DNA of 64,000 nt, taken from NCBI RefSeq assembly GCF_056746865.1, contig NZ_CM163382.1, one strand, 5' to 3'. This document shows positions 27,001 through 33,000 of the stretch, in pieces (within the stretch, counting starts at the first letter, position 1; each line of letters begins with the position of its first letter). Made by a program: the position numbers.

Positions 27001-30000
27001 AATTTAGTGACAACGGGTTAACACCGTTTGGCACCTGTATTGATGAAGTGTATTCCGCCACCGAAGGCCGGATCGGCAATAAAAAAGTGATTCTGGCCGG
27101 GACCAATAATTATCTCGGTTTAACCTTTAATCATGATGCCATCAGCGAAGGTCAGGCCGCGTTAGCGGCCCAAGGTACCGGCACCACCGGTTCTCGTATG
27201 GCAAACGGCAGTTATGCGCCGCACCTGGCGTTAGAGAAAGAGATTGCCGAGTTTTTCAATCGCCCTACCGCTATCGTTTTTTCAACCGGTTATACCGCTA
27301 ATTTAGGCGTCATCAGCGCACTTGCCGACCATAACGCCGTGGTGTTACTGGATGCCGACAGCCACGCCAGTATTTATGACGCCTGTTCTCTCGGTGGCGC
27401 GGAAATTATTCGTTTCCGCCATAACGATGCTAAAGATCTGGAACGGCGCATGGTTCGCCTCGGTGAACGGGCGAAAGAGGCGATTATCATCGTTGAGGGT
27501 ATCTACAGCATGCTCGGTGACGTTGCGCCGTTAGCGGAAATTGTTGATATCAAACGTCGTCTCGGTGGTTATTTGATTGTCGATGAAGCGCATTCGTTTG
27601 GCGTGTTAGGCGCAACGGGGCGCGGACTGGCTGAAGCTGTCGGCGTTGAAGATGATGTGGATATTATCGTTGGCACCTTCAGTAAAAGTCTGGCCTCGAT
27701 TGGCGGTTTTGCTGTCGGTTCGGAAGCGATGGAAGTGCTGCGCTACGGCAGCCGCCCGTATATTTTTACCGCCTCTCCTTCTCCGTCCTGCATTGCGACC
27801 GTGCGCTCGTCGTTAAGAACTATTGCCACACAACCAGAGCTGCGGCAAAAGCTGATGGATAATGCCAACCATCTGTATGACGGTCTGCAAAAACTGGGTT
27901 ATGAGTTAAGTTCACATATTAGCCCGGTAGTGCCGGTAATAATCGGTTCGAAAGAGGACGGTTTACGCATCTGGCGCGAGCTTATTTCGCTGGGCGTTTA
28001 TGTGAATCTTATCCTGCCACCTGCCGCGCCTGCAGGCATCACGCTGCTGCGCTGTAGCGTAAACGCTGCTCACAGTCGTGAGCAAATCGATGCCATCATT
28101 CAGGCATTTGCTACTCTGAAGCAGTAATGTGAGCCCGCCGTGGTGTTGCGCCACGGCGGGTTTAATGTTGTCTGTCATACCAATACACCAGGCTCAACGC
28201 CACCAGCACAAACGCTATCGGTAAACCGAGCGCGGTAACAGGTGCGCTCAACGCAAATAGCAATCCCAGATTGACCATGATTTGATAGCTGATCCAGGTG
28301 AGTAAGCCAACGATGACACCTACAGCGAGACGGCTACCCATCCCTGGCGAGCGCGGGGCGCTAAAGGTAAACGGCACAGCCAGCAAAATCATCGCCAGGG
28401 TCAGGATGGGTTGCCCCAGTTTTTCCCACAGTGCAAGGCGGTATTCGCTGCTGGGTTGCCCGGTTTCCTGCAAATAATGGATGTAATGATTAAGCTGACG
28501 GACAGAAAAAGTATTGCCCGGCATTGATAACTCTTCAAGATCCATACTGGTGAAGGCCGATTGCCAGGCAAGATTATCTAATGTTTCCAGCGTTTCTTTG
28601 CCATTCAGCCATTTTTTATGATTCACACCATGCAGGATCCACGTTTTGTCGTCTTCAATGGTGGCACTGCGTGCATAAATGTAGGATTCGAGCGAGAGAT
28701 CGTCGCGATAATGAAAAATCTCCACGCCCACCGGCTGGCCCTGCTCGTTCAGCGATTTCACCGTCACAAATTCATTACCACGCCTGGCCCACAGCATATT
28801 GCCGGTAATGTCATCGTCCTCCCCCAACGCGGTGGCGGTCGATTTGATTTGCAACGCCTGTTGCTGTAATGGCGACGCTACCCACTCATCTATCGCGCCT
28901 AACGAAACAGTCCACAATATCCCTGTAACCAGCGCCACCAGTGCAATACGGAAGATAGAAAACCCCATGCTGCGAATGGCGGTAAGCTCACTGTTTTTCG
29001 ATAACTGCCCCAGGCCGACAATCCCTCCCAATAAGGCGATAAATGGCGAAAGTTCGACCAGTGTGCGCGGTAAGGTCATTAGCACCACCAGCACCGCCTG
29101 AGTCCAGCGATAACCGCCCGGGCTGACATCATCCAGTTCGTTAATCAGGTTGAAGGTGGTAAAAAGCGGCAGCAATAGCCCTGCGGCGGCGGCAAAACCG
29201 AGAAAGAGATGACGGATTAAATAGCGGCTGAAAACATTCATCGGGAAAATTTCTGCAGCAAAGAGAAGTCGCGTGCGACCAGCATCAGCAGGCCCATTAG
29301 CATGAGTCCGGGTACTAACCACAAACCAGGAATGAGGGGAATCGCGCCGTTAGCCACCAGCGTACGGCAGACGTCACCGCCATAAAAAATGGCAATAAAC
29401 AGCAACGTCAGTGGCAATAACGTTGAAAATCGCCCTTGCCGCGGTTTTACCCGACTTAATGAAATGGCCAGCAGCGCCATCAACAATGCGGTCAGGCCAC
29501 GGCTTTGCCGCCATTGCAGTTCGGCATGATCGGCTGGAAAGACGGAGCGCGCCAGCTCCGTGACCGATTTCGCTTTGCGTTTGACGTTAGGGCTTTGATC
29601 CAGCGGATTCAGATGTAATTGCAGATTACGGTAGATCTGTTCGTTGTCATCACGCCCCTGATGATCGATAAGATAGGCAGTGCCGTTGTGCAACATAACG
29701 GTCGGTTTCTCGGGTGATGGGTCAATCACATCAACCGAACGGGCGCGGAAAATGCGGGTTCGATTGGCAGTAGAAGTATAAATCAGCGCGTCAGTCAGGC
29801 GATTATTATCCTGATCAACCGTCTGCGAAAGGATCATTCGTCCGTTATCGTTAGTGTTAAATTTCTTTGCCCGCAACTGGCGAACATCCAGCTCCGACTG
29901 CGACTGCTGCTCCAGTTGATAAATCTGCGCATAAGCCCACGGACGACCATACATCGACAGAAGGGTGACAAAAATACTTAGCGGTATCGCCAGATAAAGA

Positions 30001-33000
30001 ACGGCTTTGTACAAGCGTCCCGGACTGCCCCCCGCCGCAGAGATAGCGGTAATTTCCGAGTCGGTATACATCTGCCCTAGCGTCACGCCAACTGACACAT
30101 ACAGACCAACAGGTAACAACATCTCCAGTGCAATCAGTACTTTGTAGAAAACGATATCCAGCACAACATCAAGAGCTAATGTCCCATTTGCCGCTTCGGT
30201 CAGATAACGCTGTGCGGAGTAGCTGGCGAAAATAAAGATCAGAAAACCGACGATAATCAGCACCAGACGGCGCGTACCACGCATGATGTAGTGTTCAACC
30301 AGCTTCATCTCACTAACGCCCTCAATCCTTTGAGTTTTTTATTCATTGATCAGTTTCTGCGCCAACGCAATGACATGATCTACCTCTTCCGGCGTCAGGC
30401 TGCCGTCCTTTGCCCACTGAATTTGCCCGGCTTTATTCAGCACCAGAATGGTTGAACTCTGCTCCGGCAAGCGCCAGGCAACGCGTCCCTGTCCATTGCC
30501 GTCAATAACGAATTGCGCCCACGGATAGCGGCGTTTATTTTTTTCGATTTTGCCAACAACAAAATAGCCAGTACCAAAGATGGCATCATCGGTGTTCACA
30601 ATGGTGGTGGGCTGAAAACGATCCTGCGGAAAGTTTGCCGCTTCAACCGCTTTAATTAACAGTGAGTTCTTTTTCTTCGCCGACTTACGCCCGGCGATAT
30701 ACTGAATAATGCGGACTTTTCCCGCTAATTGTGTGCTGTTCCACTTTTGGTAGTGAATTTCGTCGTCGCTATTCAGAAGCAGCTCGCCGCCTTCCTGGAT
30801 ATAAACAGGGGTAACCGTTTTGCCAGTGACGAAATTGTGTGCCTGCACACCCGGGGCTAAGAGCATGATAATCAACGCAATAATCAAACGAGATGACATC
30901 ATTGCTCCGGCTATAGCGGAAAACGCGAAATCAGCAGCTCTAAGCGCTGACGAATATCGCTATCCAGCGCCACCGGTGCATCATACGACTGGCGGTTTTC
31001 CATATCATCCGCCACCATGTCGTCGTGTTTATCTCCCATCAGGCCATTAATGGCGGCGAGGAAGCGGGATATCTGTAACGCCTCTTTATTTTCAGGATCA
31101 AGCGATCTTAAGGTGTCGTAATAAGAAACCTGCTGGCTGATGATTTTTCGCACATCATGAAATTCCCTACCGGTTAGTCGCGGTTTGGCAATAATCTCTT
31201 TCAGGGTATGCATTTGCTTTTGCCGATAGGCAATAAAACTGCTTACGCTTTCTAACTGGCTATGGCGTAATGAATAGTTCACCAACGACCAGACCGGAGA
31301 GCTTAAATAAATCCGTAACAGGTTGCCGTAATACGACACAATATTTTTCTTACCGTTACGAAAGCCGTCCTGAAAACGCCCCAGAAAAACGGTCGTTTTG
31401 CCGAATAAAAATCCGGCCTGATGCTTCTTTAAATACAGCCGTTGCGCAAAACGCAGGTGCTTGTAGCGCGCTCGCATGTATTTAAATTGTTTGCGCTCAT
31501 CAGCAGTCAGCTCATCGCCTTTGGCTTGTTTGCGAACTAAACGCAGTAACTCCTGACGATCAACGCCATTGAGCCAGAATTGCAGGCATAACGCGTAATT
31601 ATCATGAATGATTTCGGTGGTACAACTTAGTGCAATAGTCGGCGGCAAACTAACCTGTGCATCAACGACATCATCTTCTTCAATCGCAACAAATAGACGC
31701 TCGCTCGCCTCAAGCGGGAAATATTTTCTCATCATCAGGATTTCTCTCCGGCTGCGTTATAAAGCAAGGAATGGCGCTGAAAAAATGCCTTTAAGGTTGG
31801 AATTAACGAGAGCGCCACGTCCAGACATTGCCCACCGAAGTAAGCAAACGCTGCTCCCAGCACACCAAACAGATGACAGAACATGAACAGCAATACGATG
31901 TAGCCGATTGAGGCGATGGTTTGCGCCACGAGAAAAGCGCGCTGTTTTCCCGCCATCAATAGCAATGACTCCTGAGGGAAGCCCAGCATCGAAATCACAA
32001 TTGCGCCCAGCATCACCTGAATCAGGTCATACGCTTCGAGATACTTAACGCCAAACACCAGCGAAATGAGCGGCTTGCCGACGATCAACACCGCGAGCGC
32101 CACCAGAATACCGATTCCGCCCGCCAGTAAACCGGACTTCACACCTAACAACCACGGTCTGGTGGTGCGCGGATCTAAACGCATCACCTCTGGGTAAAAA
32201 CTTTTACCAAGCAAACCCGCTGGCGTTCCGGCGGCGTCGAAGAATGTCATGGCGATTTTAAATAACCCGGCGGCAGCGGGTCCTAACACGATCCCCACCA
32301 ACACTGTGCTGCACGAGTTACGCGCCGACCAGATGGAGTGGGCAATGTTGGTTGACCAGACAAAACTCCACGCGCCTTTAATGTGTCGGGCAGACTCAAA
32401 CAGATTCAATTTGAAGGCGTTATGGATATTTCGGCGGCGTAATTCGCGCGCGGCAAACCACCAGTACATGGTGCCGCCAACCAGATTCGACACGTACCAG
32501 GCAATAACAAAACCCGCAAAACCAAAGTCAAAATACCAGGCTACGACGCTCCCCGCTGCGCGCAGAAAAGGTTTCGTCGCCTGCTGTACAGCAATTAAAT
32601 CGAAGCGATCTACCGCACGCAGAATGCCGGTCGGCGTGGAGGAAGCCATTGAAGGAATGAGCGTGCAATAGAGCGCTGCCAGCCAAAAACTTTGGTCATC
32701 CAGACCTAATGAATGGGAAAGGAATGGCAGTAAGGCAATGCCACCGACAATCGCCACCGCGCCGCTGACGATATCCAGCGAGAAGGAAAATGAGACGACA
32801 TTGCGGAATTGCTGCGGATTATTGTTGGTTAATGCTGGTGTTCCGTACTGAACCACCAGTTGCCATGTCTGAAACTTAATAAAATCGCTGATCGACTTGG
32901 CGTACGATTGCACAATCACCAGTACGCCAAACATGGCGGGCGTCATCCCTTTACCGGCACACGAGAGCGCCAACAGACCCAGCAAGGCGCTCACGACATT

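What the first reader, a model, noticed from the sequence alone, without database searches (positions are those of the whole stretch)
28162..30308. Orphan LptF/LptG-like permease pair with no cognate ABC ATPase in the locus
Two adjacent, overlapping minus-strand genes encode YjgP/YjgQ-family permeases, the family of the LPS extractors LptF/LptG. Canonical LptFG work with the ATPase LptB, but no ABC ATPase (no Walker A plus LSGGQ protein) is encoded in this island; the only P-loop proteins nearby (YghR/S/T) look like small kinases. A second LptFG-like pair placed convergently against a lipid-biosynthesis operon suggests a dedicated extraction or transport system for the island's lipid product, possibly borrowing LptB or another ATPase encoded elsewhere.
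Basis: partly seen in the sequence, partly recalled or inferred. Interest (0 to 1): 0.75.

Follow-up and report, generated by a model that had tools for sequence, protein, structure and literature searches.

The report
E. coli sphingolipid-locus LptF2/LptG2 pair
Most E. coli strains (not K-12) carry a second copy of the two membrane proteins that pull lipopolysaccharide out of the inner membrane, sitting inside a sphingolipid-synthesis gene cluster and most likely exporting that lipid with the ATPase borrowed from the lipopolysaccharide system; this arrangement was shown experimentally in Caulobacter in 2026, so it is real but not new.

Summary
Window 28162-29241(-) and 29238-30308(-) encode full-length LptG- and LptF-family permeases with an ATGA overlap. 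Each has six TM helices, a periplasmic beta-jellyroll and a coupling helix with the conserved Glu. No ABC ATPase is encoded anywhere in the 64-kb window.

The window is E. coli chromosome. The pair lies in the yghO-yghT island next to aasR-cerR-acpR-spt, whose E. coli Spt/AcpR/AasR are biochemically characterised sphingolipid enzymes. The island is present in about 75% of complete E. coli genomes and was removed from K-12 by an IS5-associated deletion. It is syntenic in six enterobacterial genera. The pair is under strong purifying selection (dN/dS about 0.05).

The closest non-enteric relatives are again embedded in spt clusters, never with a stand-alone LptB-like ATPase.

That work shows Caulobacter LptF2/LptG2 are needed when anionic sphingolipid is made and co-purify with LptB, and its Fig. 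2B depicts the E. coli UTI89 locus.

The E. coli pair is untested. Its locus lacks an LptC2 and its lipid product is unknown.

Verdict: real, correctly read, already known; moderate interest.

The parts
28162..29241 (-). lptG2: LptG-family permease, 359 aa
   Evidence: TIGR04408 309 bits, above cut-off 240. Full-length match to solved LptG, E 1e-42. 28% identical to K-12 LptG. AF2 model pLDDT 83, TM-score 0.83 to 6mit_G. Coupling-helix Glu (E85, equivalent to LptG E88) is invariant in 18 sequences.
29238..30308 (-). lptF2: LptF-family permease, 356 aa; its stop overlaps the lptG2 start (ATGA)
   Evidence: TIGR04407 318 bits, above cut-off 230. Match to solved LptF, E 5e-32. 29% identical to K-12 LptF. 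AF2 model pLDDT 93, TM-score 0.80 to 9dok_F. E85 (equivalent to LptF E84) is invariant in 61 sequences. Overlap seen.
28130..28164 (.). 16-bp GC-rich hairpin between convergent spt and lptG2 (terminator-like for both operons)
30339..30902 (-). ytfJ paralogue, a periplasmic protein with a signal peptide, directly upstream of lptF2 in the same operon
   Evidence: TIGR01626 212 bits. Signal-peptide-like N-terminus. Conserved in the enterobacterial islands only.
30911..31735 (-). 274-aa hypothetical protein, soluble-looking with no TM segment
   Evidence: No NCBIfam, Pfam or PDB match. Sequence. Conserved in the enterobacterial islands only.
31735..33084 (-). yghQ: MOP-superfamily flippase-like membrane protein, the candidate inner-membrane flippase for the lipid
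   Evidence: Weak MOP flippase matches. PGAP name. Truncated by IS5 in K-12. Occupies the place taken by MsbA-like ABC exporters in non-enteric clusters.
33130..33888 (-). yghR: P-loop kinase-like protein
   Evidence: Walker A without an ABC signature. Weak dTMP-kinase match.
33920..34633 (-). yghS: P-loop kinase-like protein, first gene of the minus-strand operon
34807..35499 (+). yghT: P-loop kinase-like protein, divergent from yghS
26955..28127 (+). spt: serine palmitoyltransferase
   Evidence: NF047599 599 bits, above cut-off 500. The E. coli enzyme was assayed in PMC9386255.
26707..26955 (+). acpR: specialised acyl carrier protein
   Evidence: PMC9386255.
25761..26675 (+). SDR/epimerase-family reductase (epi/cerR homologue)
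   Evidence: proposed keto-sphinganine/ceramide reductase in PMC9386255.
24076..25764 (+). aasR: fatty acyl-AMP ligase / acyl-AcpR synthetase
   Evidence: NF006624 872 bits; PMC9386255.
22524..23666 (-). yghO: proposed N-acyltransferase (ceramide synthase homologue)
   Evidence: aca: yghO ECD_02850. No Pfam or NCBIfam match.

Best explanation
lptF2-lptG2 encode the two transmembrane subunits of a second LptB2FG-type lipid extractor, dedicated to the ceramide-derived lipid made by the surrounding island.

Proposed pathway:
- AasR/AcpR/Spt, the SDR reductase and YghO build a (dihydro)ceramide on the cytoplasmic face of the inner membrane.
- YghR/S/T, and possibly the 274-aa protein, modify its head group.
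- YghQ (MOP family) flips it.
- The LptF2-LptG2 heterodimer extracts it from the outer leaflet of the inner membrane into its periplasmic jellyrolls, for delivery towards the outer membrane.
- Energy comes from the single housekeeping LptB dimer, which docks on the conserved coupling helices, so LPS and sphingolipid export share one ATPase.

Shown here: family membership, fold, conserved coupling Glu, conserved linkage to spt clusters, absence of any locus-encoded ABC ATPase, and purifying selection.

Inferred by homology with Caulobacter LptF2/G2: the substrate, the use of LptB, and the downstream route.
For: Family and fold.

Coupling helices: the region is more conserved than the rest (LptF2 TDSEITA against LptF TESEITV) and the Glu is invariant in 61 LptF-type and 18 LptG-type sequences.

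Translationally coupled pair: ATGA overlap.

Linkage to sphingolipid genes:
- E. coli island.
- The same 13-gene synteny in Escherichia, Hafnia, Pseudocitrobacter, Erwinia, Pantoea and Citrobacter, and spt-linked pairs in Pseudomonas.
- Five of six long-contig contexts of the best non-enteric relatives (31-54% identity) have the pair inside an spt/ACP/epimerase/AMP-ligase cluster. The sixth has shared accessory genes.
- These LptF2-type proteins separate from canonical Ec/Vc/Pa LptF in an NJ tree, bootstrap 70/100.

No ATPase: none in the window, no stand-alone LptB-like gene in any of 22 loci, and one lptB place per E. coli genome.

Functional constraint: dN/dS 0.045-0.075; island at least 80% covered in 4051 of 5426 genomes.

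Experimental precedent: Caulobacter LptF2/G2 form a complex, pull down LptB, and are deletable only without spt or cpgB. E. coli Spt/AcpR/AasR are active.
Against: Nothing has been done on the E. coli proteins. No sphingolipid has been reported from unmanipulated E. coli in the papers I could search, so the operon may be silent under laboratory conditions.

The E. coli locus has no LptC2, which is genetically required in Caulobacter. Its head-group genes (three P-loop kinase-like proteins) differ from Caulobacter cpgABC, so the substrate could be chemically different.

Orthology with Caulobacter LptF2/G2 was not tested directly, because no Caulobacter sequence was obtainable with these tools.

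Use of LptB rests on absence of an alternative plus conserved coupling helices. No complex model or interaction data exist for E. coli.
Confidence: 0.7

Rival explanations
1. The pair is a redundant or condition-specific LPS extractor, for example for a modified lipid A, as the RefSeq names 'LptF/LptG' imply.
For: Both proteins score above the NCBIfam 'equivalog' cut-offs for LptF and LptG. The fold is the same as the LPS extractor. Several cavity residues are kept: LptF R33 stays R, K317 becomes R; LptG K62 becomes R, R136 becomes K.
Against: The pair is only 28-29% identical to the canonical pair in the same species.

Linkage to spt clusters is conserved down to about 31-38% identity, not to LPS genes.

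LptG K34, K40, K41 and R133 are N, D, D and L in LptG2, and K34E is lethal in the enteric LptG. This argument is weak, because canonical P. aeruginosa and A. baylyi LptG also lack these lysines.

K-12 lost the pair without an LPS phenotype.
Confidence: 0.07
2. The pair works with an ATPase other than LptB: one of the many other E. coli ABC ATPases encoded elsewhere, or the neighbouring P-loop proteins YghR/S/T.
For: No E. coli data tie the pair to LptB. YghR/S/T are co-transcribed P-loop proteins, conserved in the enteric islands and partly in Pseudomonas.
Against: YghR/S/T have Walker A but no ABC signature, and resemble dTMP-kinase-fold kinases. They are absent from several spt-linked LptF2G2 clusters: L011, L012, L013, L032.

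The ABC ATPase domains seen near non-enteric pairs are fused to their own ABC_membrane domain, as MsbA-like exporters.

Caulobacter LptF2/G2 bind LptB.
Confidence: 0.13
3. The pair is a silent evolutionary relic with no present function in E. coli.
For: K-12 and about a quarter of complete genomes lack an intact island. Truncated LptF2 variants exist, for example in Shigella boydii. No native E. coli sphingolipid is reported in the papers searched.
Against: dN/dS is 0.045-0.075 at dS 0.29-0.79. The genes are full-length and syntenic in six genera. The island is retained in 75% of complete genomes. The E. coli Spt, AcpR and AasR enzymes are active.
Confidence: 0.1

Closest known systems
Caulobacter crescentus LptF2/LptG2 (CCNA_01214/CCNA_01213 = CC_1156/CC_1155), the sphingolipid-locus paralogues of LptFG (Olea-Ozuna 2024, PMC11324152; Uchendu, Isom & Klein 2026, bioRxiv 10.64898/2026.04.12.717747)
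   Same: - A second LptF/LptG pair encoded beside aasR-cerR-acpR-spt-cerS.
- No second lptB in the locus or genome.
- A putative flippase in the cluster.
- The same proposed role: extraction of a sphingolipid, powered by the LPS ATPase LptB.
- The preprint's Fig. 2B shows the E. coli UTI89 locus alongside Caulobacter and Sphingomonas wittichii.
   Different: - The E. coli locus has no LptC2.
- It carries a YtfJ paralogue and a 274-aa orphan protein instead.
- Its head-group genes are three P-loop kinase-like proteins rather than cpgABC.
- No genetics or biochemistry exists for the E. coli pair.
- Direct orthology was not tested here.
Canonical LptB2FG(C) LPS extractor of E. coli and relatives (PDB 6MHU, 6MIT, 6S8H, 5X5Y)
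   Same: - Same family (PF03739, TIGR04407/04408).
- Same six-TM plus beta-jellyroll fold, TM-score 0.80-0.83.
- Same coupling-helix Glu.
- Adjacent, overlapping F-G gene order.
   Different: - 28-29% identity.
- Different locus and neighbours.
- The enteric LPS-phosphate ligands LptG K34/K40/K41/R133 are N/D/D/L.
- LptF R212, at the LptC interface, is Ala.
- Dispensable: K-12 lacks the pair.
spt-linked LptF2G2 clusters of Pseudomonas (P. bohemica and others), Methylococcales and uncultured Gammaproteobacteria (loci L007, L011-L013, L027-L032)
   Same: LptF2-LptG2 sits next to spt/ACP/epimerase/AMP-ligase and a YghO-like gene. There is no stand-alone LptB-like ATPase. Identity to the E. coli pair is 31-54%.
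   Different: These clusters carry an MsbA-like fused ABC exporter, NTP_transf_3, DAGK_cat, Metallophos, and sulfotransferase or Asp_Arg_Hydrox genes, instead of YghQ, YtfJ2 and the 274-aa protein. This implies other head groups and a different flippase.

Membership tests
LptF/LptG (YjgP/YjgQ, PF03739) permease family | Sequence match to the family models over the full length | tested here: met
   TIGR04407 at 318 bits and TIGR04408 at 309 bits, both above cut-off. PF03739 on the clusters. Full-length phmmer matches to solved chains.
LptF/LptG (YjgP/YjgQ, PF03739) permease family | Six TM helices with a periplasmic beta-jellyroll inserted between TM3 and TM4 | tested here: met
   AF2 models have helices 2-40, 46-82, 96-138, then strands about 150-232, then three more helices. 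Foldseek TM-score is 0.80-0.83 to full-length LptF/LptG chains.
LptF/LptG (YjgP/YjgQ, PF03739) permease family | Cytoplasmic coupling helix between TM2 and TM3 with the conserved Glu (LptF E84 / LptG E88) that docks on LptB | tested here: met
   Short helix at 85-91 in both models. The Glu is invariant in 61 LptF-type and 18 LptG-type sequences. The role of E84/E88 is recalled from the literature, not re-read here.
LptF/LptG (YjgP/YjgQ, PF03739) permease family | Physical complex with an LptB dimer | not testable with these tools
   No multimer prediction or interaction data are available. The precedent exists only for Caulobacter.
Canonical LPS extractor LptFG (the 'equivalog' that RefSeq names it) | It is the organism's essential pepA-linked lptFG pair | tested here: not met
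   Canonical lptFG lies at the pepA locus in K-12 and is 28-29% identical. K-12 lacks the second pair altogether.
Canonical LPS extractor LptFG (the 'equivalog' that RefSeq names it) | Enteric LPS-phosphate ligands: LptG K34, K40, K41, R133, R136; LptF R33, K317 (PMC6744409) | tested here: inconclusive
   LptG2 has N, D, D, L and K at the five LptG positions. LptF2 keeps R and has R at the two LptF positions. However, canonical P. aeruginosa and A. baylyi LptG also lack K34/K40/K41, so this feature does not define LPS specificity.
Sphingolipid-locus LptF2/LptG2 (Caulobacter type) | Encoded within or beside the aasR-cerR-acpR-spt-cerS ceramide genes | tested here: met
   The linkage is conserved in 21 of the 22 related loci (L026, a contig-end fragment, shows only the pair).
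Sphingolipid-locus LptF2/LptG2 (Caulobacter type) | No dedicated LptB paralogue in the locus or genome | tested here: met
   No ABC signature in the window. One lptB place per E. coli genome by blastn.
Sphingolipid-locus LptF2/LptG2 (Caulobacter type) | A cognate LptC2 encoded in the locus | tested here: not met
   No LptC or LptA similarity in any enteric or Pseudomonas locus. The two unassigned genes are a YtfJ-family periplasmic protein and a TM-less helical-looking protein. The 2024 paper also reports no LptC2 in Nitrosomonas, Azotobacter and P. luteola.
Sphingolipid-locus LptF2/LptG2 (Caulobacter type) | Monophyly with Caulobacter CCNA_01214/01213 | not tested
   No Caulobacter sequence could be fetched. 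E. coli LptF2 does cluster with seven other proteins whose context is spt-linked (six) or shares the sphingolipid accessory genes (P0135/L031), and separates from Ec/Vc/Pa canonical LptF with bootstrap 70/100.
Sphingolipid-locus LptF2/LptG2 (Caulobacter type) | Deletion tolerated only when the (anionic) sphingolipid is not made; F2-G2-LptB co-purification | not testable with these tools
   Experimental criteria, shown only for Caulobacter.

The most novel reading that the evidence does not exclude
In Enterobacterales the sphingolipid-type extractor has been re-tooled. It works without a dedicated LptC2: LptF2 carries Ala at the position where R212G/S/C lets canonical LptF bypass LptC. It is fed by a MOP-family flippase (YghQ) instead of an MsbA-like exporter. 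It exports a still unidentified, non-CPG ceramide derivative made with three P-loop kinase-like enzymes. The operon-encoded periplasmic YtfJ paralogue may act as acceptor or adaptor. In about 75% of E. coli strains, LPS export and export of a cryptic outer-membrane sphingolipid would then compete for one LptB pool.
Probability: 0.25. Interest if true: 0.6.

Novelty: already known. Interest (0 to 1): 0.38.

Why it matters
If the E. coli pair works as inferred, the best-studied bacterium carries, in most natural isolates, a second lipid-export arm. That arm shares the essential ATPase LptB, a current antibiotic target, with LPS transport. It went unnoticed largely because K-12 lost it through an IS5-associated deletion.

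E. coli genetics and the existing LptB2FG biochemistry would make three open questions from the Caulobacter work directly testable:
- How one ATPase is partitioned between two extractors.
- Whether the LptC/LptA/LptDE bridge is shared.
- What the enterobacterial sphingolipid is.

It is also a practical annotation warning. RefSeq names both pairs 'LPS export ABC transporter permease LptF/LptG'.

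Tried and rejected
(1) Charge-reversal signature. LptG K34/K40/K41 become N/D/D in E. coli LptG2 and acidic or neutral (D/E, Ser in two) in all spt-linked LptG2. This looked like a diagnostic of a non-LPS substrate. I rejected it as a discriminator because the canonical LPS transporters of P. aeruginosa (A/N/D) and A. baylyi also lack these lysines.

(2) The 274-aa hypothetical or the YtfJ paralogue as a hidden LptC2. I rejected this. There is no LptC/LptA similarity by tblastn, Pfam, NCBIfam or PDB. 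The 274-aa protein has no TM segment and looks helical and cytoplasmic.

(3) YghR/S/T as the missing ATPase. I rejected this: they have no ABC signature, resemble a kinase fold, and are absent from several clusters.

(4) The MsbA-like ABC proteins next to non-enteric pairs as the 'associated ATPase'. These are complete fused half-transporters and more plausibly flippases.

(5) The search for related loci with a five-sequence LptG2 alignment failed because no conserved stretch was found. A two-sequence alignment reached only Enterobacterales and Pseudomonas, so Caulobacter and Sphingomonas sequences were never obtained.

(7) LptF R212 becoming Ala is reported only as a hint. Many relatives carry an Arg one position earlier, and the jellyroll alignment is the least certain region.

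Full report
**What is there.** The window is E. coli chromosome, 100% identical to strain 7/2, NZ_CP023820.1. At the stated coordinates two minus-strand genes encode a 356-aa LptF-like protein (29238-30308) and a 359-aa LptG-like protein (28162-29241). The lptG2 ATG lies inside the last codons of lptF2 (CGA-TGA, a 4-base overlap), which is the usual signature of translational coupling. Both proteins pass NCBI's curated equivalog cut-offs: LptF 318 bits against 230, LptG 309 bits against 240. Both align end to end with every solved LptF or LptG chain, E 5e-32 and 1e-42. They are only 29% and 28% identical to the canonical K-12 LptF and LptG, which lie at the pepA locus. They are therefore a true second pair.

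**Fold and coupling helices.** AlphaFold2 models built on alignments of 61 and 18 homologues are confident: LptF2 pLDDT 93, pTM 0.85; LptG2 pLDDT 83, pTM 0.72. Each shows three TM helices, a short helix at residues 85-91, a beta domain at about 150-232, then three more TM helices. Foldseek against the PDB returns only LptF/LptG chains at the top. LptF2 matches 9dok_F at TM 0.80 and LptG2 matches 6mit_G at TM 0.83, over the full length including the jellyroll. The coupling-helix region is the best conserved stretch (LptF2 LGQMYTDSEITA against LptF LGKLYTESEITV). The Glu equivalent to LptF E84 / LptG E88 is invariant in all 61 LptF-type and 18 LptG-type sequences examined.

**No ATPase.** A six-frame scan of the 64-kb window finds Walker A motifs only in GspE and YghR/S/T, and no ABC signature motif. 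The annotation of the whole window lists no ABC ATPase. YghR/S/T give only weak dTMP-kinase-type matches. At blastn sensitivity E. coli genomes contain one lptB place each: 5425 of 5426 genomes, median 1.

**Context.**
- The pair ends a seven-gene minus-strand operon: yghS-yghR-yghQ-(274-aa orphan)-ytfJ paralogue-lptF2-lptG2.
- This operon converges on aasR-SDR reductase-acpR-spt across a 16-bp GC-rich hairpin. yghO is divergent further upstream.
- Spt scores 599 bits to the serine palmitoyltransferase model, and AasR scores 872 bits to the fatty acyl-AMP ligase model.
- The E. coli BL21 orthologues (ECD_02850-02854) have been studied. AcpR carries phosphopantetheine, AasR acylates it, and Spt prefers acyl-AcpR and makes 3-oxo-sphinganine. 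The reductase and YghO are proposed to complete dihydroceramide (PMC9386255).
- The 'lipid-biosynthesis operon' is therefore the rhodobacterial sphingolipid pathway.

**Distribution and constraint.** The pair is present in 4131 of 5426 complete E. coli genomes. The whole 13-kb island is at least 80% covered in 4051 of them. In K-12 an IS5 element replaces everything between the 5' end of yghO and a truncated yghQ, which explains why the pair is absent from the K-12 literature. The same 13-gene order occurs in cryptic Escherichia clades, E. whittamii, Hafnia, Pseudocitrobacter, Erwinia, Pantoea and Citrobacter (61-98% identity for LptG2). Pseudomonas species carry a 54%-identical pair beside spt. 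dN/dS against other Escherichia lineages is 0.045-0.075 at dS 0.29-0.79. The genes are maintained by selection.

**Wider relatives.**
- An exhaustive search of 50%-identity representatives gives 67% and 54% hits, then a continuum of 38-27%.
- I looked up genomic context for the best ones that lie on long contigs. Five of six show LptF2-LptG2 inside an spt/PP-binding/epimerase/AMP-binding cluster with a YghO-sized gene.
- The sixth (Methylomarinovum) sits with the same accessory genes: Metallophos, sulfotransferase, Asp_Arg_Hydrox, Elm1.
- None has a stand-alone LptB-like gene.
- Four carry an MsbA-like fused ABC_membrane+ABC_tran exporter. This is a self-contained half-transporter that probably plays the flippase role which MOP-family YghQ may play in the enteric island.
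- In an NJ tree the canonical E. coli, V. cholerae and P. aeruginosa LptF separate from these relatives (bootstrap 70/100). E. coli LptF2 and all seven relatives whose genomic context was checked — six inside an spt cluster and one beside shared accessory genes — fall on the other side.

**Literature.**
- Olea-Ozuna et al. 2024 (PMC11324152) named CC_1168/CC_1156/CC_1155 LptC2/LptF2/LptG2. They proposed that, with the flippase CC_1166, these move phosphosphingolipids to the outer membrane.
- Uchendu, Isom & Klein (bioRxiv, April 2026) showed that lptF2, lptG2 and lptC2 can be deleted only in spt or cpgB mutants. They also showed that LptF2 and LptG2 co-purify, that both co-purify with LptB, and that there is no second lptB.
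- Their Fig. 2B depicts the sphingolipid operons of Caulobacter, S. wittichii and E. coli UTI89.
The E. coli locus has already been pointed out. No paper in the searchable library reports experiments on the E. coli pair.

**What differs in E. coli.**
- No LptC or LptA homologue is present in the enteric or Pseudomonas loci. The two unassigned genes are a signal-peptide-bearing YtfJ-family protein and a TM-less orphan with no Pfam, NCBIfam or PDB match.
- The head-group genes are three P-loop kinase-like paralogues, rather than the cpgABC, DAGK_cat and NTP-transferase sets seen elsewhere. The final lipid is therefore unknown.
- Residue comparison: the enteric LPS-phosphate ligands LptG K34/K40/K41/R133 (PMC6744409) are N/D/D/L in LptG2 and non-basic — mostly acidic — in all spt-linked LptG2. 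Canonical P. aeruginosa and A. baylyi LptG also lack these lysines, so I do not treat this as diagnostic.
- LptF R212, whose substitution by G, S or C lets E. coli dispense with LptC (PMC9972910), is Ala in LptF2 and non-Arg in 57 of 60 relatives. This is a hint that these extractors may couple differently to the periplasmic bridge. It is only a hint.

**Verdict.**
- The most likely mechanism is an LptB2-LptF2-LptG2 extractor for the island's ceramide-derived lipid. My confidence is about 0.7 overall: about 0.95 for 'TMD pair of an Lpt-type ABC extractor', about 0.8 for 'substrate is the island's lipid', and about 0.65 for 'ATPase is LptB'.
- The finding is already known as a class, and the E. 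coli locus has been depicted. The E. coli-specific biology is open: the product, expression conditions, absence of LptC2, and the roles of the YtfJ paralogue and the orphan protein. That is why I leave the interest moderate rather than low.

Noticed in passing
window 22524-33084, compared with K-12 locus L006 4147-5341: In K-12 MG1655 an IS5 element sits exactly where aasR, the reductase, acpR, spt, lptG2, lptF2, the ytfJ paralogue, the 274-aa gene and the 5' part of yghQ lie in this window. K-12 'yghQ' is a truncated remnant. The laboratory reference strain therefore lacks the whole transport and synthesis core that about 75% of complete genomes carry.
   Followed up: yes
window 30339-30902 (-): A second YtfJ-family periplasmic protein (TIGR01626, 212 bits; signal peptide) is encoded 30 nt upstream of lptF2. 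It occurs only in the enterobacterial version of the island, not in the Pseudomonas or metagenomic spt-LptF2G2 clusters. Its function is unknown and it has no solved homologue by sequence.
   Followed up: partly
window 30911-31735 (-): A 274-aa protein with no Pfam, NCBIfam or PDB match and no TM segment, conserved (54-96%) only in the enterobacterial islands. Its stop/start shares one base with yghQ.
   Followed up: partly
window 33130-35499: There are three paralogous P-loop proteins, YghR, YghS and YghT, with Walker A GxDGxGKS and weak dTMP-kinase similarity. They stand where other sphingolipid clusters carry DAGK_cat kinases, NTP transferases and Metallophos esterases. The enterobacterial head-group chemistry is probably different and is uncharacterised.
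   Followed up: partly
loci L007, L011, L013, L032, compared with window 31735-33084: Non-enteric spt-LptF2G2 clusters carry an MsbA-like fused ABC exporter (ABC_membrane+ABC_tran, 564-589 aa). The enteric island has the MOP-family YghQ instead. This looks like a non-homologous replacement of the presumed flippase.
   Followed up: partly
window 28162-30308; RefSeq records H1-H14: PGAP names this pair 'lptF' and 'lptG, LPS export ABC transporter permease' because they exceed the equivalog cut-offs. Island-positive genomes therefore carry two genes of each name. This is a likely over-propagated functional annotation.
   Followed up: yes
proteins P0003-P0006, P0011-P0013; window 30309-30341: A few assemblies carry 493-553-aa proteins with both YtfJ and LptF domains. 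For the 544-553-aa ones (P0003-P0006) the spacer between the ytfJ paralogue and lptF2 is 30 nt and in frame, so loss of one stop codon fuses the two. Truncated LptF2 forms (238-270 aa, for example in Shigella boydii, and one cluster of 471 members) suggest pseudogenisation in some lineages.
   Followed up: no
window 28130-28164: A perfect-looking 16-bp GC-rich inverted repeat with a 3-nt loop fills the 34-nt gap between the stop codons of convergent spt and lptG2. Its right arm runs into the lptG2 stop codon.
   Followed up: partly
window 1-12600: The left end of the window holds the T2SS-beta gsp operon (gspH-gspC, gspS2, pppA) and its substrate gene sslE, followed by the glc glycolate operon. 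I found no link between these and the finding.
   Followed up: no
window about 47530-48415 (record 3460248-3461132): yghX is annotated as a frameshifted pseudogene in this strain.
   Followed up: no
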